From an uncultured Alphaproteobacteria bacterium (GTDB lineage Bacteria; Pseudomonadota; Alphaproteobacteria; Rhizobiales; Beijerinckiaceae), in contig CAWAXL010000012.1 of NCBI GenBank assembly GCA_963785995.1, positions 1,556 through 65,555 of the forward strand: 64,000 bases of DNA, written 5' to 3'. A model generated the notes under the pieces. The model did not search any database and had not been told where the DNA came from. It saw only the letters and a list, made by a program, of their open reading frames with translations. Within the stretch, counting starts at the first letter, position 1. Each line of letters begins with the position of its first letter. This document shows positions 1,128 through 20,767 of the stretch, one piece after another. A program made the position numbers and the translations under genes.

Positions 1128-1424
1128 CTGAATCCTCAAATCTTCCAGGACCTGATCAGTCCTGGCGGATCCAGGTGGACGAACCGCAGCTTCGCATGGC
1201 TTAAAAAGCCGCCTTCAAGAATGGTTTCGTCTTCCTGAGCCCCGCCCGCCGCAAGCGGGATATTGGTGCAGCCGTCGTGAACGGCGACCGAATGTGAGGT
1301 TGATCTGGCGAGGAAACAACCAGGCCGTGCAATCGGGCTGAGACCTTGGATACCGAAAAAGCCGCTGGAGTATTATCGATGCGCGTATGAATCTCATCTC
1401 TTGACCCGAACCTCCCCATGTGAG
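1128..1424 (+). ncRNA. IS1111-type right-end non-coding region (bridge/seek RNA) and element right end
   Basis: Hairpin at 1145-1165 and two internal-loop modules (1178-1231, ~1262-1305) with segments matching the insertion flank and the element end; ends ...CCTCCCCATGTG-AG. Confidence 0.75.
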
Positions 1425-1487
1425 CGAAGCTCTTGATCGGAACAACCCGATGACTGCCCACCAGATCAGTTTGAGCATGTCTCCCAT
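1424..1487 (-). pseudogene. N-terminal remnant of rve/integrase-core transposase, interrupted by the IS1111 element
   Basis: MGDMLKLIWWAVIGLFRSRASL, the characteristic N-terminus of the family whose C-terminus is at 82-210. Confidence 0.75.
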
Positions 1488-1643: not shown

Positions 1644-2345
1644 ATGCAGAACATGGCGCGTGGAATTTCTTCGATCGTGACAACTGCGGTGGTCGCTGGA
1701 GCGATCGGCTTTGGAGCAGGCGTTTATCTCGTACCGAACGAAAAGGCCGACCAATTCCGCGCTATGGCGAACGAAAAGGCGGACCAATTCCGCGCTATGG
1801 TGCAGGGTGGGCTTGGCGCGATCTATCGAGTTGTTTATTCCGACAAGGCTGATCCCGATATTCACCCTTCGGAATCGTCACAAACGAAGCCCCCTGGAGA
1901 GACATCTCGTACAGAGGCGCAACCAGATGTCCCGGCGGGATCGCAGCCTGGCGCCGATGCGCAATGCGATCCTGGCAACTCGACGTGTCGTGGTGGACTC
2001 CCTGTCGATGCCGCAGCTCCACAAGATATCCCTGACCGTGATGTTGCCGCCCCGAGCAGTTCGCCGCCTGAACAAGACGATCAGCCATCACATGCATTGA
2101 ATGCCGATCCTTCTGGAACTGTGCCGCCTGGGATTTCTGACCGTGAGGTTACCGCCCCGAGCAGTTCGCCGCCAGAACAAGACGATCAGCCATCACATGC
2201 GTTGAACACCGATCCTTCTGGAACTTTGCCGCCGAACAGCTCACCAAACATTGAAAGTGATGCCCCTACGCCTGTCGCCCCAGAAACTGCTAAAAAGAAG
2301 CCCCCTGCCAAGAAAGTGAAACCCAAGAGCAGCCCCAGCGAGTAG
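1644..2345 (+). CDS. Membrane-anchored Pro/Ser/Asp-rich hypothetical protein with internal tandem repeats
   Basis: N-terminal hydrophobic helix; 33-bp duplication (1735-1800) and 105-bp duplication (2032-~2233), both in frame; Lys-rich tail. Confidence 0.75.
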   Translation: MQNMARGISSIVTTAVVAGAIGFGAGVYLVPNEKADQFRAMANEKADQFRAMVQGGLGAIYRVVYSDKADPDIHPSESSQTKPPGETSRTEAQPDVPAGSQPGADAQCDPGNSTCRGGLPVDAAAPQDIPDRDVAAPSSSPPEQDDQPSHALNADPSGTVPPGISDREVTAPSSSPPEQDDQPSHALNTDPSGTLPPNSSPNIESDAPTPVAPETAKKKPPAKKVKPKSSPSE

Positions 2346-2544
2346 CTTTTCGCCGATGGGGTCCGGGCCCGCCGAGGTCTTCCTGCAGCCGATGGTCAAG
2401 TGCACGGGCGAGCAGGTTCCTTCGAACAAAGCCGCTGGTGGTTCCTCTCTGGTTTTGACGCCACAGATTGCGAAGCTCACCCACGTTCATCGCCGCGATG
2501 GATTGAGCTTCACATCGGGATCACGTCGCCCTTGACGAAGGCTC

Positions 2545-2835
2545 CTATCGGTCGGCGCTGTCGAGTTGGTGCAGATAGCGTGCAACGCTCTCCTCGATCT
2601 GCGCCATGCGCCGCTGCATCTTGGCGCGCGTGAAGTTCTTGTCCCGATTATTGACCGCCTTGAACTTGCTGCCGTCGATCGCGACGCTGGCCTCAGCGAA
2701 AAGGCCCATCGTGCGGCAGAGCGCTACGAACCGGGTGCAGACCTGACGGATGGCGCGGCCATTGTCCTTGCGGAAGTCGGCGATCGTCTTGTGATCTGGA
2801 ACGAGGCGCCTTGTCAGCCACATCACCTCGATGTT
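2545..2835 (-). pseudogene. IS1182-family transposase internal fragment
   Basis: NIEVMWLTRRLVPDHKTIADFRKDNG...AIDGSKFKAVNNRDKNFT. Confidence 0.9.
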
Positions 2836-3014
2836 CCCCAGAAACTGGACTTCTGGGGACGGGGTCGTGACCTTCTGCATTGCGCCAACAAGAGACATTG
2901 TTGTTGCCGAGATATGCGGTCCGCAAGCAGCTTTATCTCGCCCGAAAATCGTTTCAATATCCTTGTCAGCTGCTGCTCCGGCCGCCCGGCACCAAGAAGA
3001 TGCGAAGGTAACCG

Positions 3015-3590
3015 ATGAACAAGGAACGACTTGCTGCCTTCAGCGACGGCGTTATCGCCGTCATCATCACCATTATGGTGCTAGAGATGAAGGTACCGCG
3101 CGGCTCGGAGCTGGGAGCGCTTTGGCCCTTGGCACCGGTTTTCGGAAGCTATGTGCTGAGCTTCGTGTACGTGGGTATCTACTGGAATAACCACCACCAT
3201 TTGCTGCATGCTGTGCAGTCTATTAACGGCCGCATCCTCTGGGCCAACCTGCATCTGTTATTCTGGCTGTCGCTAATTCCTTTTTGCTCCGGGTGGATGG
3301 GTGAGAACCATTTTGATACTCTGCCGGTCGCACTTTATGGCGTGGTACTCTTAATGTGCGGCATTGCATACTACATTCTCGCGCGGCTCCTGATTGCACA
3401 CCACGGTCATCAGTCAAACCTGGCGATCGCGTTGGGCAGCGACTTCAAGGGGATTGCGTCGGTTCTGCTCTATATCGCGGCCATTCCGCTCGCCTTCTTC
3501 AGCTCGCCAGCTACATTCGCTGTCTATGTGCTCGTTGCGGCTATCTGGTTCATACCAGATCGTCGGATAGAAAGGACGTTTAGGCAATAA
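3015..3590 (+). CDS. TMEM175-family (DUF1211) potassium channel
   Basis: RLAAFSDGVIAVIITIMVLE signature, YWNNHHH, multiple TM helices. Confidence 0.93.
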   Translation: MNKERLAAFSDGVIAVIITIMVLEMKVPRGSELGALWPLAPVFGSYVLSFVYVGIYWNNHHHLLHAVQSINGRILWANLHLLFWLSLIPFCSGWMGENHFDTLPVALYGVVLLMCGIAYYILARLLIAHHGHQSNLAIALGSDFKGIASVLLYIAAIPLAFFSSPATFAVYVLVAAIWFIPDRRIERTFRQ

Positions 3591-4090
3591 AGCGTTCCAT
3601 GTGACCTTGCGAACCGAACGTCCCAGATGATTGTCGACTGAGAAGCCGCAAATGTTGCGTTCACGCTGTGTGAGTTCGAGGCCGACTAACTAAGTACCAA
3701 ATTGTTCCACGAGCGTAGCAGTGGAAAACCTCTCGGTTCTGTAGGAACGTCCGTTCTGGTCAATTCCTGTCATCGAAAACTCTGAGCCGAACTTCCGCAA
3801 AGGGTCGAATGCAGAAGTTCTTCAAATGACTCTGGGACGCCGATAGCATCCGATGATCGTGGAAACACCTCACGCCGAGATGCAGCGAGCGGCAGATCGT
3901 TAATCCGCTCGACAGCCATCGCTCTCATCATGCTCAAGCCGACATCCACCTGATTGGCCCCCCATTGGGTGGTCCGCGCGAATGCTAGTTTAGCCGGGAA
4001 TGACCATTGAAAGCGCTTGAAATCGACGGTATTGGACGCTGCCGAGATTTGACTGTTATCAGTAAGGGAACGGTTAACCAAAACCGTATG

Positions 4091-5128
4091 CTACCGCGCC
4101 AGCGGCCCATTGGCCTTCTTCCAGGCATCGATGCCGCCCTGAATGTGACAGGCGGTCTTGAGGCCGGCGTCCTGCGCGGCTTGTACCGCCATCGCCGAGC
4201 GCTCGCCGAAGGCGCAGTAGAACACAATCCGCTTGCCGGTCGCCGCTGCCAATTCGTGCAGCATGCCGCCTGCGCTGATGTTCTCCTGCAAGTCCGGATA
4301 GGGCGCGTGCAGCGAGCCGGGAATGGTTCCGTGTCTTTCGCGTTCGCTCTTCTCGCGCAGGTCGACGATCGCGACGTCGGGGCGGCCGCGCAACGCCACC
4401 GCCTCGGCCGCCGAGACCGCCCAGCCTTTGCGCGCGATCTCGTCCTGGTGGAGACCGACATGCATGTTGGCCGGCACCGCCACATCCATCATCTTCGGAT
4501 TGGGCAGCTTCAGATTGTTCATGAGGTCGACATATTCGTCGACCGATCCGACCTTGAGCCGCGGGTTGAACTGCTTCTCCTCGCCGATGGTCGAGACCGT
4601 GTCGCCTTTGTAGTCGTGCGCCGGATAGACGAGCGTCTCGTTCGGCAGCTTGAGCAGCTTGCCGAAGATCGAGTCGTATTGCGCGCGTGCATTGCCATTC
4701 TGGAAATCGGTGCGGCCGGTGCCGCGGATGAGCAGCGTGTCGCCGGTGAACACGCGATCGCCCATGAGGAACGAATACGAATCGTCGGTGTGGCCCGGCG
4801 TGTAAAGCACGTCGAGGCTCAATCCCTCGATCTCGATGCAGTCGCCTTCCGTCACGCGCATGGAGACGACGTCGGCGTGCGTTTGCTCGCCCATCACCGT
4901 GATGCAATGGGTGCGGTCGCGCAGCGCACCCAGTCCGGTGACGTGGTCGGCGTGCAGATGCGTGTCGACGGCCTTGACCAGCTTGAGATCGAGCTCGCGC
5001 ACGAGCTGCAGATAGCGGTCGACCTTCTCCAGCACCGGATCGATGATCAGCGCCTCGCCGCCATGCCGGCTGGCGATGAGATAGGTGTAGGTGCTGGAAA
5101 CGCTGTCGAAGAGCTGGCGGAATATCAT
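4091..5128 (-). CDS. Persulfide dioxygenase (ETHE1-like MBL fold) fused to rhodanese
   Basis: THLHADH, TPGHT, GDTLLIRGTGRTDF, PAHDY; C-terminal rhodanese loop FYCAFGERS. Confidence 0.93.
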   Translation of the reverse strand: MIFRQLFDSVSSTYTYLIASRHGGEALIIDPVLEKVDRYLQLVRELDLKLVKAVDTHLHADHVTGLGALRDRTHCITVMGEQTHADVVSMRVTEGDCIEIEGLSLDVLYTPGHTDDSYSFLMGDRVFTGDTLLIRGTGRTDFQNGNARAQYDSIFGKLLKLPNETLVYPAHDYKGDTVSTIGEEKQFNPRLKVGSVDEYVDLMNNLKLPNPKMMDVAVPANMHVGLHQDEIARKGWAVSAAEAVALRGRPDVAIVDLREKSERERHGTIPGSLHAPYPDLQENISAGGMLHELAAATGKRIVFYCAFGERSAMAVQAAQDAGLKTACHIQGGIDAWKKANGPLAR

Positions 5129-5261
5129 CGGCGACTCCGTTCCGCGAATCTTACGCCGGACACCTCGTGAAAGCGTCAGGCGCCGAGCAAGGGTGCGGCG
5201 ATTGTAAGGACGGAAAAATGTTTTGCCCCTGGCCCCGCAGGCCGGAGAGAGGGCATCGCTG

Positions 5262-5926
5262 TTACGCCTTCGGCTGCGGCACGATGCGGATGTAGGGCTT
5301 CGGCGCCTTCCAGCCTTGCGGATATTGCTTCTTGGCGTCCTCGTCGGTCACCGAGCCGGCGATGATCACGTCCTCGCCCTGCTTCCAGTTCACCGGCGTC
5401 GCGACCTTGTGCTTGGCGGTGAGCTGCAGCGAGTTGATCACGCGCAGCACCTCGTCGAAGTTGCGGCCGGTGGTCATCGGATAGACGAGGATCAGCTTGA
5501 TCTTCTTGTCGGGCCCGATGACGAAGACGTTGCGCACGGTCTGGTTGTCGGCCGGCGGTGCGCTTGGCTGGATCGCCGGACACGGCCGCCGGCAGCATGC
5601 CGTAGAGCTTCGAGACGTTGAAGTCGGTGTCGCCGATCATCGGATAGTTGGGCGCAAAGCCCTGCGTCTCCTTGATGTCGTCCGCCCAGCCGGAGTGCTG
5701 CTCGACCGGATCGACGCGAGAGGCCGATGATCTTGACGCCACGCTTGTCGAACTCGGGTTTGATCTTGGCCATGTAGCCTAGCTCGGTGGTGCAGACCGG
5801 CGTGAAATCCTTCGGGTGCGAGAACAGCACGGCCCAGGAATTGCCGATCCAGTCGTGGAAGCGGATTTTGCCTTCGGTCGTTTGCGCCTCGAAATCCGGC
5901 GCGGTGTCGTTGATTGCAAGAGTCAT
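5262..5926 (-). CDS. 1-Cys peroxiredoxin (Prx6), two frameshifts
   Basis: [16 protein letters not shown] and [21 protein letters not shown] split across three frames. Confidence 0.9.
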
Positions 5927-6020
5927 CACATACTCCGTCAGGTGGGTGTAAGGGATGGCCTGGGGGCCGGTATCGCGTCTACGACTTAAGCGCTCAGGCG
6001 ACCGTCTCAGAGAGGGCGGT

Positions 6021-6494
6021 CTAATGGTGGTCGTCCTGTTCCTCGTGATGCGGTCCGGGGGGCTCGGTTTTGACCATATTGGACTGCCCCTCTTCCGAGT
6101 GGTCGATGAACAGGACCTTGGTCGGCGTCGAGCCGGCATTCATGCCGTGATGCCGGGTCCCGATCGCCTCGACGAAGATCGTTCCGGCCGAGAATTCCCG
6201 CCGGGTACCGTTCTCCAGTTCGATCGACAGCGTGCCGTCGATCACATAGACATAGCGAATATTCGGATGCTCGTGCCACCCGACATCGACGCCAGGCGGG
6301 ATCTCCACCATCGTGGCAGTGACTTGTGGATTTTTGCCGGGATATTCCAGCTTCTGGCCGGTGATCGTTGTGGCCGTCTTCAGCAACGGAGTTGCCTTCA
6401 CAGTCGGTTGCTGCTGGGCCCAGGCGGTCGTGGTGGCGAGAAGCAGGACAAGGAACCCGGCAGACAGCTTTTGCATCCTCATGGCGCGCTCCAC
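6021..6494 (-). CDS. Secreted cupin-domain protein with His-rich tail
   Basis: Signal peptide ending AWA, WHEHP...[11 protein letters not shown] cupin motifs, tail HHEEQDDHH. Confidence 0.85.
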
Positions 6495-8483: not shown

Positions 8484-8649
8484 GGGTTTTCTCCACCTCT
8501 TCAACGTTCACACTATACAAATTTAGGGTGAGCGAGCCGTTCTCTCGAGACACTGTCGCTTTTATGAGTGCGTGTGCAATACGGTCGGGTGCAGTGTATG
8601 CATCCGGTGTGAACCGCAGGCGCTTTCCGATTTTTCCTGGCGCAGATGT

Positions 8650-8877
8650 TCACGCGGCGGCGGCAGGCACGAGCTGACGAGCCTTGTTCCAGGTCCACGG
8701 GAGCAATTCGTCGATCTGCTTCACCGGATGGTCCGGCAAGCGGGCAAGGATGTCGGCGAGCCAGGCCTGAGGATCGACGTCATTTAACTTGCATGTCTCG
8801 ATCAGTGTGTAGACCGCAGCGGCGCGACGTCCGCCTTCATCAGAGCCAGCGAATGTCCAATTTTTTCTGCCAACCGC
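8650..8877 (-). pseudogene. tnpC: IS66 TnpC C-terminal part
   Basis: AVGRKNWTFAGSDEGGRRAAAVYTLIETCKLNDVDPQAWLADILARL...LLPW. Confidence 0.92.
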
Positions 8878-9356
8878 CATCACCCGTTCATTCTGCCCAT
8901 GTCGGGCAGGAGTTGGAAGTCCATTACCGGTGGCACCCGTATTTTGGCAGCAAGGTTGCTGTCCGTCGTGTGGAGCAGCGAGCAACTGGGCAATTTCTTC
9001 AGGTGCTGGGGCCAGCCGGCGTTGTGGTCTCGATGGCAGGGTGGATGCTCGATCCCGTCATCTGCGCCGGAATGACTTTTGGCGGCCCGCGCGTCGATCT
9101 CGCCGCACTCGTCGAGTTGGAGCGACTGTTGATAGGTGCGATCAATCCCGCACAGTGCCGGAGCGATGTTGCGATCGTTCCGGAGGAAGGCAATGCAGTC
9201 TCCCAAAGCGTCGGCGGTGGAGCCGGCTCGGCAGCTGACCCTGTTATTCGACAACACCAGGCTGGAAAGGCTGGGCTCTGCGGAGCGGGACAAGATCATT
9301 TCGGCGTTGGCTCAGATCCTCATGCAGGCGGCCGGCCTCAGCGTCGAGGAGCTTGA
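8878..9356 (+). CDS. Accessory ORF1 of the LSR element; its RBS and start lie at the opposite end (11446)
   Basis: SPVHSAHVGQELEVHYRWHPYFG...WMLDPVIC.GM resembles Y4bD/Y4pK-type proteins (from memory); in frame with ATG 11446 after circularisation. Confidence 0.7.
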
Positions 9357-9372
9357 CGATGACAAGCGCTGA
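9193..9372 (+). CDS. Small accessory ORF2 of the LSR element (59 aa)
   Basis: Strong RBS GGAGGAAGG before ATG 9193; MQSPKASAVEPARQLTLLF...; overlaps the LSR start. Confidence 0.7.
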   Translation: MQSPKASAVEPARQLTLLFDNTRLERLGSAERDKIISALAQILMQAAGLSVEELDDDKR

Positions 9373-11431
9373 AATGATTCCGGCGGTCATCCTCAAGAAG
9401 AAGGCTGTCGTCTATGTGCGCCAGTCGACGCAATCCCAGGTGATGACCAACCTGGAGGGCAAGCGGCGCCAATATGATCTGGTCGATGTCGCCCGCCAAC
9501 ACGGTTTCGTGGATGTTGAAATCATCGACGACGATCTCGGCCGGTCGGCGAGCGGAACGGTGGCGCGCCCCGGCTTTGACCGCTTGGTGGCATGGCTGTG
9601 CGCCGGGAAGGTCGGCGCTGTCTTGTGCTTCGATGCTTCCAGGCTCGCGCGAAACGGTCGCGATTGGCATCACCTGCTTGAATTGTGTGGGCTTGTCGAA
9701 GCCCGCGTCATTGATGGCGAGGGTGTCTATAACCCGTGTCGCCCAAATGATCGCCTACTCCTTGGCATGAAAGGCAGCATCAGCGAGTTCGAACTCGGCG
9801 TGCTACGCACCAGGATGTTGGACGCCGCCCGGTCCAAGGCCAGCCGGGGCGAGCTGCGCTTGTCGGTTCCCTTCGGCTACATCTGGCACCGGGAAGCAGG
9901 GCTTGGCCTTGATCCCGATCTACGTCTCCAGGAGGTCATTCGCCTCATCTTCGTCCGCTTCCGTGAACTCGGCAGCGCGCGCCAGGTTCTGCTCTCGATG
10001 AAAGCCGATCATATCCACTTCCCACGTCCCTCTGATGAGGGCCGCATGACGAGCTTCGACTGGACGCCGATCCGCTACCGCAATGTGATCGCCGTTCTCA
10101 AGAATCCCTTCTACGCCGGGGTCTACGTTTACGGGAAAAGCGAGAAACGCACCTCCATTGTCGACGGAAGGGCACGACGGAGCTACGGGCATGGCAAGCC
10201 GATCGGGACATGGGAGGTGATGATCAAGGATCATCACGAAGGCTATATCCGCTGGGCGGAATATGAGCGCAACCAGAAGCAGCTCGCCCTCAACAATTAC
10301 GGCCGTGCCGGAGGCGTGAAGTCCGGCCGGGGCGGCAAGGCGCTTCTGTCAGGCGTCATGACTTGCCGTCGATGCGGACGGCGACTGAGCGTCGCATATA
10401 CGGGCAATCCTCAAAGTCGGCCGGTATATCGCTGCGACAAGCCAAACCTTATGATGGGGCTGCCGCGGTGCATGACCTTCGGCGGCCCGCGAGTCGACGC
10501 GGCGGTCTCCCGAGAGTTGTTGCTGGCGGTGGAGCCAATGGCGATTGACGCGGCTTTCGAGGCGGAGCGGATGCACCGGGAACAACAGGAAGACCAGCAA
10601 CGCATCTTGGACATGGAAATGCAGCAGGCTCGTTATGAGGCAAGTCTGGCCGAGCGCCGTTACGCGGCCTGCGATCCCGACAATCGTCTCATTGCCGCAC
10701 AGTTAGAAAGAAACTGGGAGACGGCGCTGCGGCGTGTCCGGGAACTGGAGATGCGCCAGCCCGCGGAACGGCCGTCAGACATCGAGGTCGACCCGAGCGC
10801 CTTCACGAACCTGGCGGACAATCTGTCGGCAGCATGGCATGCTCCGAACGTTACGATGCGTGCCCGACAGCAACTGCTGCGGACATTGATCGCCGACATC
10901 ATCGTCGATGTCGACGACGACGCGCGTGAGGTCGTGCTCACGATTCATTGGCGTGGCGGTCAGCATTCCGAACTGCGCGTCCGTAAACCACGGGCTGGCG
11001 AGCATGGTTGCGCGACGACAGAGGACGCTTTGGCGGTCATGCGCAGCATGGCCGGTCGCTGGTCGGACGAGCATATCGCCGCGTCGCTCAATCGAATGGG
11101 CATGCCCACAGGCCAAGGCAAAACCTGGACAGCGCATCGCGTTTCTTCGGTTCGACGCGTGCGTGGAATCCATGCCTATCGATCGGCGGAAAAGGACGGC
11201 GAATGGCTCACCATGACGGAGGCGGCAAAGCTGTTGGGCGTCACACACCATACAATTCGGCGCCTGATCAAAACGGGCGTCCTTCCTGCGGTGCAGGTTG
11301 TTGCCGGCGCTCCGCATCAAATACGGGCCGACGACTTGGCGTCGGACCCGGTGAGAACGGCGGTGGCCCGTAAAGGTCGCCCGTGTCGCGCTGTCGACGC
11401 GGACACGCTTCCAATGTTTCCAGATACTTGA
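9359..11431 (+). CDS. Large serine recombinase with C-terminal excisionase-like HTH
   Basis: AVVYVRQS catalytic motif, DASRLARN, recombinase domain, Zn ribbon CRRC...YRC, coiled coil, WLTMTEAAKLLGVTHHTIRRLIKTG; intact; RBS GAGGAG. Confidence 0.95.
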   Translation: MTSAEMIPAVILKKKAVVYVRQSTQSQVMTNLEGKRRQYDLVDVARQHGFVDVEIIDDDLGRSASGTVARPGFDRLVAWLCAGKVGAVLCFDASRLARNGRDWHHLLELCGLVEARVIDGEGVYNPCRPNDRLLLGMKGSISEFELGVLRTRMLDAARSKASRGELRLSVPFGYIWHREAGLGLDPDLRLQEVIRLIFVRFRELGSARQVLLSMKADHIHFPRPSDEGRMTSFDWTPIRYRNVIAVLKNPFYAGVYVYGKSEKRTSIVDGRARRSYGHGKPIGTWEVMIKDHHEGYIRWAEYERNQKQLALNNYGRAGGVKSGRGGKALLSGVMTCRRCGRRLSVAYTGNPQSRPVYRCDKPNLMMGLPRCMTFGGPRVDAAVSRELLLAVEPMAIDAAFEAERMHREQQEDQQRILDMEMQQARYEASLAERRYAACDPDNRLIAAQLERNWETALRRVRELEMRQPAERPSDIEVDPSAFTNLADNLSAAWHAPNVTMRARQQLLRTLIADIIVDVDDDAREVVLTIHWRGGQHSELRVRKPRAGEHGCATTEDALAVMRSMAGRWSDEHIAASLNRMGMPTGQGKTWTAHRVSSVRRVRGIHAYRSAEKDGEWLTMTEAAKLLGVTHHTIRRLIKTGVLPAVQVVAGAPHQIRADDLASDPVRTAVARKGRPCRAVDADTLPMFPDT

Positions 11432-11459
11432 AAAAGGGGCGCACAATGACTCACGCATC

Positions 11460-12903
11460 GCTATACCGCGCACCGCTCGTTCGGCGGCATTGTTGCTAAG
11501 GCAGACTCGCCCATCGTCTAGGAAGCGGGTGAAGGCGGTCCAGCGTTTGAGGACGTAGTCGATCGCCTTGGCGAGGTCGTTCCGCGCGAGAGCTGGCACG
11601 TTGCTCGCGCAGCCAGCTGTCCAGCGCCTCGACGAGTGGCGACTGAGCTCCTGACGGACGCACCCGCGCTCCTCCGGCGCGTTGCCGTTGATCGTCCGCT
11701 CGATCTCGAACAGTGCATCGATGCGTCGCACGGCTTCCATGGCTAGCGGCGAGATCACTCCCGGCGTTTGGCCTTGCGCCTTGCGACGGGCGTTCTCGCC
11801 AGATCAGCCATGGCGAAGAAAGGGCGGCGGGCATGGGCCCAGCATGCTGCTTCCAGGATCGGGCCCGGCTTGCGATCGGGCTCGTATAACTTGTTGTATC
11901 CGCCGTAAGCGTCAGCCTGGAAGATTCCGGCATAGGTGGCCAGATGCGCCTGGGGGTGCTCGCCGGCTCGATCGCGCGAGTAATAGAACATTGCTGCCGG
12001 CGGCGCGGCGCCGCCGAAAGGGCGATCGTCGCGCACATAAACCCAACATCGACCGGTGTCGGTCTTGCCCTTGGCCAGGACCGGCACGGTGGTGTCATCG
12101 CCGTGCAATCGGTCGGCTGCAAAGACATGCGCTTCAAAGCGCTTGAGGATCGGGTCCAGCACCGCGCAGCCGGCCCCCACCTGGTCGGCCAAGGTCGACA
12201 AGCTGAGCGGCACGCCTTCCTTGGCGTAGCGTTCGGCCTGGCGGTTGAGCGGCTGATGCTGCCCGAACTTCTCGAACAGGATCAATGCCAGAAGACTGGG
12301 ACCGGCCCAGCCCCTGGCGATCACATGGAACGGCGCCGGAGCCTGGCTGATCTTCTCGCAGTCCCGGCAGGTGAATTTCTCGCGGACATGCTGGATCACC
12401 TTCCATTGGCGTGGGATTGATTCCAGCGTCTCGGTGATGCTCTCGCCCAATTTGCGCAGCCGCCCGCCGCCGCAGCAAAGGCAAGCGCTCGGTCCCGGCA
12501 CGATAACCCGCTCGCGCGGCAGATGCTCGGGGAACGGCTTGCGCGCGGGGCGCTTGCGGGTGAAGGCCGCCACCGTTGTGGTTTTGGCCACGGCCATCTC
12601 GGCGACGATTTCGTCCTCGGTAGCCGAACTCTCCAGCTCCTCGAACTGCAACTCGATCTGATCCAGAAGCCGGGATGTGCGTTCCGAGCGCGGGCCATAG
12701 AGCTGCCGCGTCAGCTTCTCGATCCGCAGTTGCTGGTGGGCGATCAGGGCCTGATCATCGGAGGCCTTGGCTCTCGCCACTGCGAGTTCCGCTTCAGCGT
12801 ATGCTGCCCTGGCCACTTCGACGATACGCGCATCGCGCGCCGCGACCAGCGCCGCCTTTAGCTCCTCGATGTCATTGGGAAAGGCTTCACGACCCGAATC
12901 CAT
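11460..12903 (-). pseudogene. tnpC: IS66 TnpC N-terminal and catalytic part, with frameshifts near the 3' end
   Basis: LYGPRSER, HLPRERV, CLCCGG, LHGDDTTVPVL, QADAYGGY, CWAHARR, SNNAAERAVRGIA. Confidence 0.93.
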
Positions 12904-12961
12904 ACCCAGATAGAATCATAAATATCGGCGGATAACTCGTAAAAAATGAAGCGTCCGCGAC

Positions 12962-13309
12962 TTATCCTGCACGTTCCGGACGAAAGGTATGACGCGGATT
13001 CCGCCAATCGATTCCGTCGAGCATATAGGCCAACTGCGAGGCCGAGATTCCAACTACGCCGTCCGTCGGCGATGGCCAGATGAAGCGGCCTTTCTCCAGC
13101 CTTTTGGCGTAGAGCGACATGCCGAGACCGTCATGCCAAAGAATCTTAATCAGGTCACCTCTGGCGCCTCTAAAGACGTAAAGATCACCTGCGTGGGGAT
13201 CGCGTCGCAGCGCTTCCTGGACCTGTAGAGCCAGGCCATTCATGCCGCGCCTCATATCCGTTCGTCCGACCGCAAGCCAGACCCGCACACCAGAGGGAAC
13301 CGGGATCAT
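12962..13309 (-). CDS. tnpB: IS66 accessory protein TnpB
   Basis: MIPVPSGVRVWLAVGRTDMRRGMNGL...KILWHDGLG...KRLEKGRFIWP. Confidence 0.95.
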   Translation of the reverse strand: MIPVPSGVRVWLAVGRTDMRRGMNGLALQVQEALRRDPHAGDLYVFRGARGDLIKILWHDGLGMSLYAKRLEKGRFIWPSPTDGVVGISASQLAYMLDGIDWRNPRHTFRPERAG

Positions 13310-13695
13310 CGCCGCTCCAGCACATCGAGTACACGCCGCAGTGCTTGCGCATCGACGCCGCTGCTGACGCGGACACGGTACTTGCCGGAAAGTTCAATCT
13401 CGATCGTCTCCGCGCCGGTCGACGGCTGCGTGGCGACAGCATCCGGTTCCGCTGTAACCGTCACCGGGATCAGTTGAGGAGCCGACCGGAGGGCCGGCGC
13501 ACCCCGGTCGTCGCGATAGCGCCTCCGCCAATTGAATACCTGGTTCGCATTCACGTCGTAATGACGGGCAACCATTGAGACCGACGAGCCAGGCGCAAAC
13601 GACGCCGCCACGATCTCCCGCTTCAGCGCCTCCGGCCACGAGCGGTTACGCGGCCGCCCAGTCGCCATTATGCCCATAAACAACTTTGTGGACAC
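13306..13695 (-). CDS. tnpA: IS66 accessory protein TnpA (HTH); start uncertain
   Basis: RSWPEALKREIVAASFAPGSSVSMVARHYDVNANQVFNWRR. Confidence 0.92.
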   Translation of the reverse strand: MSTKLFMGIMATGRPRNRSWPEALKREIVAASFAPGSSVSMVARHYDVNANQVFNWRRRYRDDRGAPALRSAPQLIPVTVTAEPDAVATQPSTGAETIEIELSGKYRVRVSSGVDAQALRRVLDVLERR

Positions 13696-13778
13696 TTCTC
13701 ACCCTCACAACGCCAACGATCACATCAGACTCGGCGAAATGAAGCGATTCAGGAAGGCGGCTCTCGGCGGAGGGATAC

Positions 13779-19032: not shown

Positions 19033-20767
19033 ATCGGAAAAGATGCCGCGACGGTCCGCCAAAAAGACCCGCTGTGCGATTTACACACGAAAATCGTCGG
19101 AGGAAGGCCTGGAGCAGGCCTTCAACTCGCTCGATGCCCAGCGGGAAGCCTGCGCCGCCTTCATTGCATCCCAAAAGCACGAAGGCTGGACGGTGTTGTC
19201 GACGCTCTATGATGATGGCGGGTTTTCCGGCGGCACGATGCAGCGTCCAGCCCTGAAAAGGCTGATCGCCGACATCGAGGCCGGCCAGATCGACGTGATC
19301 GTCGTTTACAAGGTCGACCGGTTGACACGAGCGCTCTCCGATTTTGCCAAGCTCGTCGAGGTCTTTGACCGCCGCGGCGTCTCGTTCGTATCGATCACCC
19401 AGCAATTCAACACCACCACCAGCATGGGACGGCTGACGCTGAATGTCCTTTTGTCCTTCGCCCAGTTCGAGCGGGAAGTCACCGGCGAACGAATCCGCGA
19501 CAAGGTCGCCGCATCCAAGAAAAAGGGCCTGTGGATGGGCGGCATGCCGCCCCTGGGGTATGACGTGAAAAACCGCAAGCTCGTCGTTAACGACGCCGAG
19601 GCGCGCATCGTTGTCGAGATCTATCGGCGCTATCTCGCGCTCAAGTCGGTTCACGCGCTGCGGGACGAGCTTGCTGACGCCGGGATCAAGAGCAAGCGCC
19701 GACTGCGGCCCGACGGCGCCGAATATGGGGGCCAGAAGTTCTCCCGCGGGGCGCTTTATCTGATCCTCCAGAACCGTCTTTACCGCGGCGAGATATCCCA
19801 CAAGGGCAATATCTATCCCGGCGAGCATCCGGCGATTGTCGACAAGTCTTTGTGGGACGAGGTTCAGGCCGTGCTGGCCGCAAACCGCGTAGAGCGGGCG
19901 GCGGGTGCGCGAGGAAGGCACCCGAGCCTGCTGACCGGCATGGTTTTTGACGAGACCGGCGAGCGCCTGACACCAACTCACGCAGTCAAGAAGGGAACCC
20001 GCTACCGGTACTATGTTTCGACCTCGCTCGTCACCGGCGCGGGAAAGAAACGTTCGATCGGCCGGCGCATCCCGGCCGGCAATTTGGAAGGCCTGGTGAT
20101 CAACAAACTCCGCACCTTTCTCGCTGATCCCGGAGCAATCCTCGATGCGGCTGGCAGTGAATCGTACAGTGGTTCAGAGCAGAGCCAACTGATCGAACGT
20201 GGCCGTCAGATCGCGGAAGACCTCGGAACACACGCACCTGACAAAGTCAAAGCGATGCTCATGGCCCTGCTCTGCCGTGTGGAAATCCGATCCGATCGCA
20301 TCGACATCACGCTCTCTCGATGCCGGCTCATCGAGCTGCTGGCGGGGGCGAATAATCTGAAGATTGAACATCACGGACAGCAGAACGCACTTGGCGATAT
20401 GCTGACACTGACGGTGCCGGTGAGTCTGAAGCGCGTCGGTCGCGAAATGCGGATGCTGGTCGAGAACGCCGATGATCAGACGGCAGCCGATCCCAGCTTG
20501 CTCAGAATCCTGGCTCGCGCTCACCACATCCAGGCGCGCCTGATCCAAAACCCCAAGCTCACCGTGCATGACATTGCTCGTGAGGAGCACGTATCGGCAG
20601 CCTACCTCTACACCCTACTGCGTCTTCCCTGGCTGGCACCCGACATCACCACGGCCATCATCAATGGCCGAAAGCCGCCGCAACTCTCCGCCCAGACATT
20701 GATGCGTCTGACGCCGCGGCTGCCGGCCGGCTGGTCCGAACAGCGGAAGCTCCTCGGCTTCCGCTGA
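19025..20767 (+). CDS. Large serine recombinase (island integrase, SpoIVCA-like)
   Basis: CAIYTRKSSEEGL, YKVDRLTR, SFAQFERE...ERIRDK, GGMPPLGY; intact. Confidence 0.95.
   Translation: MGESEKMPRRSAKKTRCAIYTRKSSEEGLEQAFNSLDAQREACAAFIASQKHEGWTVLSTLYDDGGFSGGTMQRPALKRLIADIEAGQIDVIVVYKVDRLTRALSDFAKLVEVFDRRGVSFVSITQQFNTTTSMGRLTLNVLLSFAQFEREVTGERIRDKVAASKKKGLWMGGMPPLGYDVKNRKLVVNDAEARIVVEIYRRYLALKSVHALRDELADAGIKSKRRLRPDGAEYGGQKFSRGALYLILQNRLYRGEISHKGNIYPGEHPAIVDKSLWDEVQAVLAANRVERAAGARGRHPSLLTGMVFDETGERLTPTHAVKKGTRYRYYVSTSLVTGAGKKRSIGRRIPAGNLEGLVINKLRTFLADPGAILDAAGSESYSGSEQSQLIERGRQIAEDLGTHAPDKVKAMLMALLCRVEIRSDRIDITLSRCRLIELLAGANNLKIEHHGQQNALGDMLTLTVPVSLKRVGREMRMLVENADDQTAADPSLLRILARAHHIQARLIQNPKLTVHDIAREEHVSAAYLYTLLRLPWLAPDITTAIINGRKPPQLSAQTLMRLTPRLPAGWSEQRKLLGFR

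What the first reader, a model, noticed from the sequence alone, without database searches (positions are those of the whole stretch)
8850..11490. Minimal serine-recombinase element that targets the catalytic region of IS66 tnpC
Seen: tnpC breaks at ...SNNAAERAVRGIA| and resumes at |AVGRKNWTFAGSD, with CGC at both junctions. Excision restores GIAVGRK exactly. Predicted attP is GCACAATGA-N10-GC-N10-TCATTCTGC, an 8/9 inverted repeat symmetric about a 2-bp GC core. Established: LSRs cross over at a central dinucleotide, and NNxAER carries the DDE glutamate of IS66. Inference: a cargo-free parasite of insertion sequences that lands in a conserved multicopy motif and reversibly inactivates its host IS. 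It provides a ready attB/attP pair for an intact integrase.
Basis: partly seen in the sequence, partly recalled or inferred. Interest (0 to 1): 0.8.

Follow-up and report, generated by a model that had tools for sequence, protein, structure and literature searches.

The report
Mini serine-recombinase element homing into IS66
A 2.6-kb selfish DNA element, driven by a large serine recombinase, sits at one conserved codon of the transposase gene of another mobile element (IS66). Its relatives sit at that same codon in many bacteria, so it is a widespread and apparently undescribed parasite of a parasite.

Summary
IS66 tnpC (minus strand) is split after ...NNAAERAVRGI-A by a 2,584-bp element (8878-11461). 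The GC crossover dinucleotide is present at both junctions (CGC in this copy).

- **Boundaries.** The same genome holds an empty tnpC site (contig C28). Two metagenome runs hold contigs that skip exactly these 2,584 bp.
- **Target specificity.** Of 72 homologous elements with readable flanks, 70 lie at the same tnpC codon. Their host TnpC proteins are only 28-91% identical to the reference TnpC.
- **Mobility.** Elements 100% identical to each other occur in IS66 copies that are about 65% identical within one genome, so the element moves on its own.
- **attP.** GCAcAATGA-N10-GC-N10-TCATTCTGC is conserved in 54 distinct elements.

orfY (59 aa) is conserved. orfX is DUF5372-like; its ribosome-binding site and ATG lie at the right end and its body at the left end, so it is whole only in the excised circle. 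A model places orfX on the zinc-domain/coiled-coil junction of the recombinase, where directionality factors bind.

This copy's tnpC also carries a frameshift, so excision here would not revive the IS. The scan found this family before on other DNA. I found no publication describing it; NGRIS-4 and Tn4451 are the closest known elements.

The parts
8596..13778 (-). Host IS66-family element (tnpA, tnpB, tnpC), a mosaic of two IS66 lineages. It has no matching 8-bp target duplication (GGTGCAGT against TCCGCTCC).
13306..13695 (-). IS66 tnpA (HTH_Tnp_1)
12962..13309 (-). IS66 tnpB (TnpB_IS66)
11462..12903 (-). tnpC 5' part (TnpC residues 1 to about 484). It ends ...NNAAERAVRGI plus the first two bases of the Ala codon. 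It carries 1-bp deletions near 11798, 11644, 11595 and 11582 relative to the C7 copy, giving a stop at residue 382.
8650..8875 (-). tnpC 3' part (...VGRKNWTFAGSD... and the IS66 C-terminal domain), from a diverged IS66 lineage.
8876..8877 (.). GC crossover dinucleotide, left junction.
11460..11461 (.). GC crossover dinucleotide, right junction.
8878..11461 (+). The mobile element, 2,584 bp counting one core copy.
8888..8896 (+). Left attP arm TCATTCTGC, 11-19 bp from the core. It also encodes H-S-A of orfX.
11441..11449 (+). Right attP arm GCACAATGA. It contains the ATG of orfX (11446-11448) and is preceded by a conserved GGAG-type ribosome-binding site.
11446..11461 (+). orfX first exon-like piece: start codon and codons 1-5 (MTHAS) plus the first base of codon 6. 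It joins the body only in the circular form.
8878..9356 (+). orfX body, 164 aa in all. Residues up to about 95 are conserved (DUF5372-like beta-barrel plus helix). The tail overlaps orfY and is not conserved, but it stays open and stops 2 nt before the recombinase ATG.
9193..9372 (+). orfY, 59 aa, with its own ribosome-binding site. It is conserved across the family and belongs to no known family.
9359..11431 (+). Large serine recombinase, 690 aa: Resolvase, Recombinase and zinc-ribbon domains, coiled coil, and a C-terminal excisionase-type HTH_17 domain. The gene is intact.

Best explanation
Bases 8878-11461 are one copy of an autonomous, site-specific mobile element of 2,584 bp.

Mechanism of movement. 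Its 690-aa large serine recombinase (LSR) recombines the element's attP with an attB formed by a conserved stretch of IS66 tnpC. attP has two 9-bp arms, 10 bp either side of a 2-bp core. attB encodes N-x-x-E-R-x-x-R-x-I | A-x-G-R-K-N-W-L-F. The crossover falls on the first two bases (GC) of the Ala codon. Insertion splits the transposase after residue 484 of 556. Precise excision as a circle would rejoin it. This step is inferred from the sequence; no recombination was observed.

Accessory genes. The element carries orfY (59 aa) just upstream of the LSR, and orfX, a DUF5372-like protein. The ribosome-binding site and ATG of orfX lie at the right end and its body at the left end, so orfX is complete only in the circle.

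Proposed role of orfX (probability about 0.4-0.5). Circularisation switches on orfX. Its translation runs to within 2 nt of the LSR start, so it couples into LSR synthesis. Its product docks on the junction between the zinc domain (DBD2) and the coiled coil of the LSR and biases the enzyme towards re-integration.

This particular copy. The element looks intact. Its host IS66 is a recombinant pseudogene: mosaic, without a target duplication, and with a frameshifted tnpC.
For: Shown directly
- LSR domains are present and the ORF is intact.
- An empty tnpC site exists in the same genome, and the shared core is GC.
- Metagenome contigs from 2 studies skip exactly 2,584 bp.
- Among 80 loci with LSRs 68-98% identical, 46 have tnpC on both flanks at the same codon, 20 on one flank, and 8 are contigs of the element alone, 2,440-2,596 bp or a truncated 2,199 bp.
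- Host TnpC proteins are 28-91% identical to the reference.
- Elements 100% identical sit in IS66 copies 61-73% identical within single genomes: L019/L020, L083/L084, L068/L069.
- attP is conserved in 54 distinct elements.
- The core co-varies with the host codon: GC for Ala, GG for Gly, GT for Val, the same at both junctions.
- dN/dS is 0.06 for the LSR and 0.12-0.21 for the orfX domain.
- A ribosome-binding site plus ATG at the right end reads in frame into orfX in nearly all elements.
- Only 12 of 62 integrated contexts offer an in-frame ATG in the flank.
- The orfX frame is open across the orfY overlap in 57 of 57 distinct elements, against 12.2 expected under synonymous recoding.
- Removing the element restores a 556-aa TnpC in copy C7.

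Model-based
- Complex prediction gave score 0.65, against 0.00 for the best of 3 controls. That mark was reached by 58 of 80 solved complexes and 2 of 110 mismatched pairs. The runs agree in at least 78% of contacts, and the partner pLDDT is at least 70.
- The interface covers LSR residues 335-342, 386-403, 475-515 and 528-538.
- Verified directionality factors bind the DBD2/coiled-coil junction (PMC12286644).
Against: - No recombination, circle or excision event was observed. The empty sites may never have been occupied.
- Orientation is strongly biased: about 66 usual against 3-4 reversed. With a palindromic GC core the enzyme alone should give both orientations, so something else (selection, or asymmetry of the sites) is unexplained.
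- attB is poorly conserved at the DNA level and has no dyad symmetry. How one enzyme accepts such varied sites is unclear.
- The complex prediction used three chains and my own alignments, unlike its calibration. In PMC12286644, 4 of 11 such virtual hits were false positives.
- A factor that binds where directionality factors bind, yet is made only after excision, runs against the usual logic for such factors. Its direction of action is a guess.
- No sigma-70-like promoter was found.
- The frameshifts in this tnpC could be assembly errors.
Confidence: 0.87

Rival explanations
1. The recombinase module is not independently mobile. It is a fixed passenger of one IS66 sublineage, inherited and spread only when the composite IS66 transposes or is duplicated.
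For: - The C7 composite has a normal 8-bp IS66 target duplication.
- Three Bradyrhizobium copies are identical over 10 kb, flanks included.
- Orientation is almost always the same.
Against: - Identical elements sit in IS66 copies only 61-73% identical in the same genome.
- Host TnpC proteins range from 28 to 91% identity to the reference.
- An empty site of the same IS type exists in this genome, and contigs elsewhere show precise 2,584-bp skips.
- Eight assemblies give the element as a contig of its own, bounded at the GC cores.
Confidence: 0.03
2. orfX is a conventional recombination directionality factor that drives excision (attL x attR), not integration. In the integrated state it is expressed from some other start or from read-through.
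For: - The model places it at the DBD2/coiled-coil junction, the site used by all verified directionality factors.
- In this window the frame happens to be open into the flank, with upstream ATGs.
Against: - The only conserved ribosome-binding site and ATG lie at the other end of the element.
- Only 12 of 62 contexts have any in-frame ATG in the flank, and several have a stop 1-2 codons upstream.
- No conserved internal start exists.
Confidence: 0.25
3. The element has been domesticated as an on/off switch for IS66 transposition. It would resemble the developmentally excised elements cut out by XisF or SpoIVCA, rather than being a selfish parasite.
For: - The best NCBIfam match of the LSR is XisF, far below the cut-off.
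- Insertion is precise and in principle reversible.
Against: - It is spread across Alpha-, Beta- and Gammaproteobacteria in unrelated IS66 lineages.
- Many hosts are decayed, and several elements have stop codons in the LSR.
- Cousins sit in other IS families.
- No host benefit is evident.
Confidence: 0.05
4. This particular copy is a fossil. The element looks intact but no longer moves, and the window only records an old insertion that was later reshuffled by homologous recombination.
For: - The host IS66 is mosaic, lacks a target duplication and has frameshifts.
- The two copies in the genome differ by 2.5%.
- No circle junction was seen in contigs.
Against: - All three ORFs are intact.
- Differences between the two copies are mostly synonymous: 40 synonymous against 8 non-synonymous in the LSR, dN/dS 0.06.
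- Both attP arms and both cores are intact.
Confidence: 0.2

Closest known systems
Tn4451/Tn4453 (TnpX) and Tn5397 (TndX), clostridial transposons moved by large serine recombinases
   Same: - A large serine recombinase excises the element as a circle and re-inserts it at a 2-bp crossover.
- In Tn4451 the circle junction creates the promoter for tnpX (Lyras and Rood 2000, title cited in PMC13023037). That is the same logic as a gene completed only in the circle.
   Different: - Those elements carry resistance or conjugation cargo and insert at loosely defined sites (my own knowledge).
- This one carries no cargo and aims at one codon of another mobile element.
- The state-dependent feature here is a split coding sequence with translational coupling, not a split promoter.
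- Sequence relation is remote.
NGRIS-4 of Sinorhizobium fredii NGR234 (pNGR234a about 33.9-37.3 kb)
   Same: - It is a repeated IS-like unit whose large gene is an LSR of the same architecture, including the C-terminal extension (37% identity over 646 aa).
- A DUF5372 gene stands first.
   Different: - It is 3.3 kb and has two extra HTH or 'transposase' ORFs in place of orfY.
- I did not determine its target.
- No full-text paper in the library mentions it.
Phage and prophage large serine integrases with directionality factors (phiC31, Bxb1, SPbeta SprA/SprB)
   Same: - Same domain set.
- attP has outer motifs for the zinc domain.
- The crossover is a 2-bp core.
- A small partner protein is predicted at the DBD2/coiled-coil junction.
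   Different: - No phage or large cargo.
- attB lies in a multicopy mobile gene.
- The core is palindromic.
- The partner gene is interrupted by integration, the reverse of what a factor needed for excision would require.
Group II introns that home into insertion sequences (for example RmInt1 in ISRm2011-2), recalled from my own knowledge
   Same: A mobile element whose natural target is a conserved site inside another mobile element's gene, so that it rides a multicopy, horizontally spreading target.
   Different: Retrohoming through RNA, against DNA site-specific recombination. Introns splice out of the mRNA and so spare the host gene, whereas this element truncates the protein.
IS607 family (small serine recombinase transposases)
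   Same: A minimal element mobilised by a serine recombinase.
   Different: The IS607 model matches only weakly (E 0.003, 17 bits against a cut-off of 110). Those enzymes are small, have an N-terminal MerR-type HTH domain and little target specificity (my own knowledge).

Membership tests
Large serine recombinase (integrase/transposase type) | N-terminal resolvase catalytic domain with the nucleophilic serine and the arginines of the active site | tested here: met
   PF00239 matches at E 4.8e-20. S23 in YVRQST is invariant, R95, R98 are invariant and R21 is conserved in at least 90% of 26 homologues.
Large serine recombinase (integrase/transposase type) | Recombinase domain (DBD1) plus zinc-ribbon domain (DBD2) with an inserted coiled coil | tested here: met
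   PF07508 matches at E 5.4e-16 and PF13408 at E 8.6e-07. C336, C359 and C371 are invariant and C339 is at or above 90%. The coiled coil is inferred from the sequence and the model.
Large serine recombinase (integrase/transposase type) | att sites with a 2-bp crossover and an imperfect inverted repeat in attP | tested here: met
   The GC core is shared by both junctions and the empty site. The arms are symmetric at 8 of 9 positions in 54 elements.
Large serine recombinase (integrase/transposase type) | Catalyses attP x attB recombination | not testable with these tools
   Only the products (attL, attR) and empty sites are seen.
DUF5372 (PF17342), for orfX | Match to the Pfam model at the gathering score | tested here: not met
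   No hit even at E <= 10.
DUF5372 (PF17342), for orfX | Remote homology, fold and gene position like bona fide members | tested here: inconclusive
   hhalign against the NGRIS-4 DUF5372 protein gives E 7e-4, probability 27%, colinear over 74 columns. Language-model features: 63 of the top 100 clusters are DUF5372, score 0.93. Fold match to a DUF5372 cluster: TM 0.54/0.48, rmsd 1.8 over 61 residues. The gene has the same position upstream of a related LSR.
IS66 family (the host element) | tnpA, tnpB and tnpC in order, with the IS66 DDE domain | tested here: met
   Matches to HTH_Tnp_1, TnpB_IS66, LZ_Tnp_IS66, zf-IS66, DDE_Tnp_IS66 and DDE_Tnp_IS66_C.
IS66 family (the host element) | 8-bp target-site duplication and an intact transposase | tested here: not met
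   The window flanks are GGTGCAGT and TCCGCTCC. With the element removed, tnpC stops at residue 382. The C7 copy meets both criteria.
Tn4451-type serine transposon | Excised circular intermediate whose junction switches on recombinase expression | not testable with these tools
   The split orfX with conserved start, and the frame kept open up to the LSR start, fit this logic. No circle junction was seen in contigs.
Recombination directionality factor (functional class), for orfX | Binds the DBD2/coiled-coil junction of its cognate integrase and changes reaction direction | tested here: inconclusive
   Binding is supported only by the model: score 0.65 against best control 0.00. The mark was reached by 58 of 80 solved complexes and 2 of 110 mismatched pairs, contact agreement is at least 78%, and partner pLDDT is at least 70. 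The effect on direction was not tested.

The most novel reading that the evidence does not exclude
The element is one branch of a large, undescribed clade of serine-recombinase hyperparasites. Each branch homes into a conserved motif of a different mobile-element gene. Seen here: IS66 tnpC, IS21 istB at the Walker A motif, and IS3-type orfB at its C-terminal DYN motif. Direction is controlled by a topological switch: a DUF5372 protein can be made only from the excised circle, docks on the DBD2/coiled-coil junction, and sets the enzyme to integrate. This would be a directionality factor with the opposite logic to phage factors.
Probability: 0.3. Interest if true: 0.88.

Novelty: new variant of a known kind. 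Interest (0 to 1): 0.75.

Why it matters
- **A second layer of parasitism in bacterial mobile DNA.** The element's habitat is another transposon's catalytic gene. It disables copies of IS66 while riding on them between genomes, which may affect IS load and genome stability in rhizobia, methanotrophs and Burkholderiaceae.
- **A natural experiment in target recognition.** One enzyme family follows a protein-coding motif through heavy synonymous variation, and the crossover dinucleotide changes with the host codon.
- **A compact toolkit.** It offers a 690-aa integrase with many natural attP/attB pairs and a candidate partner protein that may set direction. These are useful leads for recombinase engineering, with the caveat that a GC core does not fix orientation.
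- **An annotation problem.** Pipelines currently label the pieces 'recombinase family protein', 'hypothetical protein' and a broken or over-extended 'IS66 family transposase'.

Tried and rejected
- **Circle junction.** Laying contigs of four runs showed no go-back joint, that is, no attP junction. Contigs cannot show absence.
- **Transcription.** RNA-library contigs cover 8880-11134 at 90-99% identity. The tool warns this does not show transcription, so I did not use it.
- **Promoters.** A sigma-70 scan of 8500-11700 gave 0 sites. This is uninformative for this organism.
- **Family searches for orfX and orfY.** Pfam, NCBIfam and PHROGs gave nothing significant. orfY against the positional NGRIS-4 ORF gave no alignment. 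PDB Foldseek for orfX gave only weak KOW, Tudor or SH3-like rows with E >= 0.009.
- **IS66 catalytic glutamate.** A PDB sequence search with TnpC, meant to map the catalytic glutamate, found no structure. One search was a mistyped reference. An open-text search for the IS66 DDE motif found no paper.
- **Literature.** Searches for IS66 with serine recombinase or tnpC, NGRIS-4, DUF5372, and nested or hyperparasitic elements found no description of this element. The library lacks most subscription journals, so absence is not proven.
- **Composite transposition.** The three Bradyrhizobium copies were meant to test whether the composite transposes as a unit. They are identical over the whole 10 kb fetched, so they are uninformative.
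- **Programmed frameshift joining orfX to orfY.** I considered this and rejected it. orfY has its own ribosome-binding site and ATG, the shift would have to be +1, and only L012 shows a fusion.
- **orfX expressed as a fusion with the flank.** I considered this and rejected it as a general mechanism.

Full report
**What is there**

The minus strand of 8596-13778 carries an IS66-family element. Pfam finds tnpA (13306-13695), tnpB (12962-13309) and a tnpC whose domains are split between 11755-12903, 10775-11758 and 8650-8985. Between the tnpC pieces, on the plus strand, lies a 690-aa large serine recombinase (LSR, 9359-11431). It has Resolvase, Recombinase and zinc-ribbon domains and a C-terminal excisionase-type HTH.

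**The observation**

- tnpC reads ...SNNAAERAVRGIA and then runs into foreign sequence at 11460. It resumes at 8877 with AVGRKNWTFAGSD.
- CGC stands at 8875-8877 and at 11459-11461.

**Boundaries and empty sites**

The genome (3.5 Mb, 41 contigs) holds three IS66 tnpC copies.
- Contig C28 is uninterrupted (...NNAAERALRGIALGRKSWLF...).
- Contig C7 carries a second copy of the element at the same codon.
- The third copy is this window.

Comparing C7 with C28 leaves only GC common to both junctions and the empty site. That fits the 2-bp staggered cut of serine recombinases. The element is therefore 8878-11461, 2,584 bp with one core.

Independent support comes from two DNA metagenome runs of two studies. 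Their contigs match the window's own flanks and join 8874 to 11459, skipping exactly 2,584 bp. Deleting the element in silico restores a full 556-aa TnpC in C7.

**Recurrence**

A scan of one genome per prokaryotic species returned the best 80 of 151 loci whose LSRs are 68-98% identical. They come from Alpha-, Beta- and Gammaproteobacteria, including many isolates. About 160 plasmid records carry LSRs at 60% identity or more.

I searched the 80 loci with the intact C28 TnpC as query.

| Flank situation | Loci |
|---|---|
| tnpC on both flanks, N-part ending at residue ~483-484 and C-part starting at ~480 | 46 |
| tnpC on one flank only (other side off the contig or too diverged) | 20 |
| Reversed or odd | 4 |
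| Contig of the element alone (2,440-2,596 bp or truncated at 2,199 bp), those complete at an end starting/ending at the GC core | 8 |
| Unclear | 2 |

Host TnpC proteins are only 28-91% identical to the query. The reconstructed target is N-x-x-E-(R/N)-x-(I/L/M)-R-x-(I/V/F/L) | (A/G/V)-x-(G/N)-R-(K/R)-N-x-L-F. The crossover falls on codon positions 1-2 of the residue after the cut.

Of 68 elements with both ends located, the cores were as follows.

| Core at both junctions | Elements |
|---|---|
| GC/GC | 46 |
| AC/AC on the LSR strand (GT, Val, in tnpC sense) | 5 |
| CC/CC (GG, Gly) | 3 |
| GT/GT | 1 |

The remaining 13 had different dinucleotides called at the two junctions; at least six of these are cases where the motif search misplaced the right end. 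The core tracks the host codon.

**Independent mobility**

Elements that are 100% identical over about 2.6 kb sit in IS66 copies only 61-73% identical within single genomes. Examples are L019/L020, L083/L084 in a complete Paraburkholderia chromosome, and L068/L069. This excludes simple co-inheritance with one IS66 lineage.

The two copies in this genome are 97.5% identical. In the LSR they differ at 40 synonymous and 8 non-synonymous sites (dN/dS 0.06), so the recombinase is under purifying selection.

**The att sites**

Across 54 distinct elements, attP is GCAcAATGA-N10-gC-N10-TCATTCTGC. The 9-mers are complementary at 8 of 9 positions in 91-100% of elements at each position. Motifs 11-19 bp from the centre fit the outer zinc-domain contacts described for LSR half-sites (PMC12286644).

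attB has almost no dyad symmetry, and only codon-level conservation.

GC is its own complement. From my knowledge of Bxb1 and phiC31, the central dinucleotide alone sets polarity, so both orientations should be possible. Opposite-orientation insertions at the same codon do exist (L046/L048, L054; L011 is odd). They are rare, and I cannot explain the bias.

*orfY.* orfY (9193-9372, 59 aa) has its own ribosome-binding site. It is conserved across the family (R-Q-x-x-L-x-F ... E-R-x-K ... L-A-x-x-L-x-x-A-A-G) and is annotated 'hypothetical protein' in GenBank records.

*orfX.* The right-end arm contains an ATG (11446-11448) preceded by a conserved GGAG-type site. Read across the core into the left end, it opens a 164-179-aa ORF in nearly all elements.
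- Its first ~95 residues are conserved (dN/dS 0.12-0.21). Its tail overlaps orfY in another frame. There orfY is the selected frame (0.36-0.77, against 1.2-1.85 for the orfX frame).
- The orfX frame nevertheless stays open to a stop 2 nt before the LSR ATG in 57 of 57 distinct elements. Synonymous recoding of orfY predicts 12.2.
- In the integrated state only 12 of 62 contexts offer an in-frame ATG in the flank. orfX is therefore whole only in the circle.
- An earlier first-stage note on this same stretch (e1-5521907) proposed exactly this. I tested it and it holds.

**What orfX may be**

- It misses the Pfam DUF5372 model.
- A profile comparison with the DUF5372 protein of NGRIS-4 is colinear but weak (E 7e-4).
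- Language-model features point to DUF5372 clusters (0.93).
- The AlphaFold model (pLDDT 80.6) is a small beta-barrel plus helices. It matches a DUF5372 cluster and KOW or SH3-like domains.

A complex prediction (LSR, orfY, and orfX as partner) supports binding.
- Score 0.65, best of 3 controls 0.00.
- The mark was reached by 58 of 80 solved complexes and 2 of 110 mismatched pairs.
- The runs agree in at least 78% of contacts, and partner pLDDT is at least 70.
- These counts hold only roughly, because I used my own alignments and three chains.

The interface covers LSR residues 335-342, 386-403, 475-515 and 528-538. That is the junction of the zinc domain (DBD2) and the coiled coil, where all verified directionality factors are predicted or seen to bind (PMC12286644). 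That paper also reports 4 false positives among 11 tested.

On the orfX side, residues 64-88 contribute. This stretch is 12/16 identical to LSR residues 372-387.

**Proposed mechanism**

Shown: the anatomy, the target, recurrence, selection on all three genes, and the split ORF.

Inferred:
1. The LSR excises the element as a circle and re-inserts it at the GC of the Ala codon.
2. Circularisation completes orfX, and its translation couples into the LSR. This parallels the circle-junction promoter of Tn4451 (Lyras and Rood 2000, cited in PMC13023037).
3. The orfX protein docks on the LSR and biases direction, most sensibly towards integration.

Step 3 could equally be a conventional excision factor. 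I rate that at 0.25.

**This copy**

The host IS66 is a recombinant.
- Bases 11700-13778 are about 99.5% identical to the C7/C28 type.
- Bases 11462-11700 and 8596-8877 are 15-30% diverged.
- The 8-bp flanks do not match, whereas C7 has the duplication CGTTGAGG.

tnpC also has 1-bp deletions near 11798, 11644, 11595 and 11582 relative to C7, and indels relative to the empty metagenome allele. Without the element it still stops at residue 382. Excision here would not revive the IS, unless these are assembly errors.

**Context and novelty**

More distant LSRs (40-45% identity), with an orfX-like gene and a similar right end, split other IS genes.
- L088 splits an IS21 istB at the Walker A motif.
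- L089 splits an IS3-type orfB in rve_3.

NGRIS-4 of pNGR234a is a described IS-like relative: DUF5372, two HTH ORFs, and an LSR 37% identical.

The scan has met this IS66-targeting family several times on other DNA. Those follow-ups, like me, found no publication describing it.

I class it as a new variant of a known kind. Transposons driven by serine recombinases, and elements that home into insertion sequences, are both known. This combination, and the circle-only gene, are not.

Noticed in passing
L088 (NZ_CP050299.1, Mesorhizobium huakuii p_1) 2132-5847; L089 (NC_009468.1, Acidiphilium cryptum pACRY02) 2804-6421: LSRs 40-45% identical to the window's have an orfX-like 'YRWHP' gene upstream and split other IS genes. 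One splits an IS21 istB at the Walker A motif (..ITGPT | GLGKSW.., IstB_IS21 profile 42-101 and 104-150). The other splits an IS3-type orfB at ..WRHDY | NHHRPHSSLG (rve_3 profile 2-54 and 48-67).
   Followed up: partly
window 8596-8877, 11462-11700 against 11700-13778: The host IS66 is a mosaic of two lineages: near-identical to the C7/C28 type on the tnpA side, 15-30% diverged next to the element. It lacks a matching target duplication, so it is probably a product of homologous recombination between two IS66 copies.
   Followed up: partly
window 9072-9119 (orfX residues 65-80) and 10472-10519 (LSR residues 372-387): orfX and the LSR share a 16-residue stretch (MTFGGPRVD.A...EL, 12/16 identical, E 5e-6). 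It lies at the predicted interface on both proteins. This may be mimicry or an ancient duplication of the zinc-domain/coiled-coil junction.
   Followed up: partly
L046, L048 (Rhizobium croatiense, R. redzepovicii), L054, L011: Rare insertions lie at the same tnpC codon in the opposite orientation, as a palindromic GC core allows. L011 has the tnpC C-part on both sides. The overall orientation bias (about 66 to 4) is unexplained.
   Followed up: partly
L019 and L020 right flanks: Two identical elements in one genome share 30 of 30 bases of flank immediately next to the right junction, although their host tnpC genes are otherwise about 66-70% identical. This may reflect gene conversion spreading from the element into the conserved motif.
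   Followed up: no
L043, L072, L015, L034/L035/L078, L060: These homologous elements have a stop codon inside the LSR, so they are decayed copies. L034 and L060 also have broken orfX.
   Followed up: no
G000:C14:400944-402405 (outside the window): A decayed relative of the LSR, 26-30% identical, with TGA and TAA stops inside. I did not examine its flanks.
   Followed up: no
window about 19034-19609 (G000:C12:20589-21164): A 592-aa open frame whose N-terminus weakly matches the resolvase domain (25% identity, E 8e-9). This is a different serine recombinase in the same window.
   Followed up: no
window 1128-1440: Another first-stage note on this window proposes an IS1111-type bridge RNA here. 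I did not examine it.
   Followed up: no
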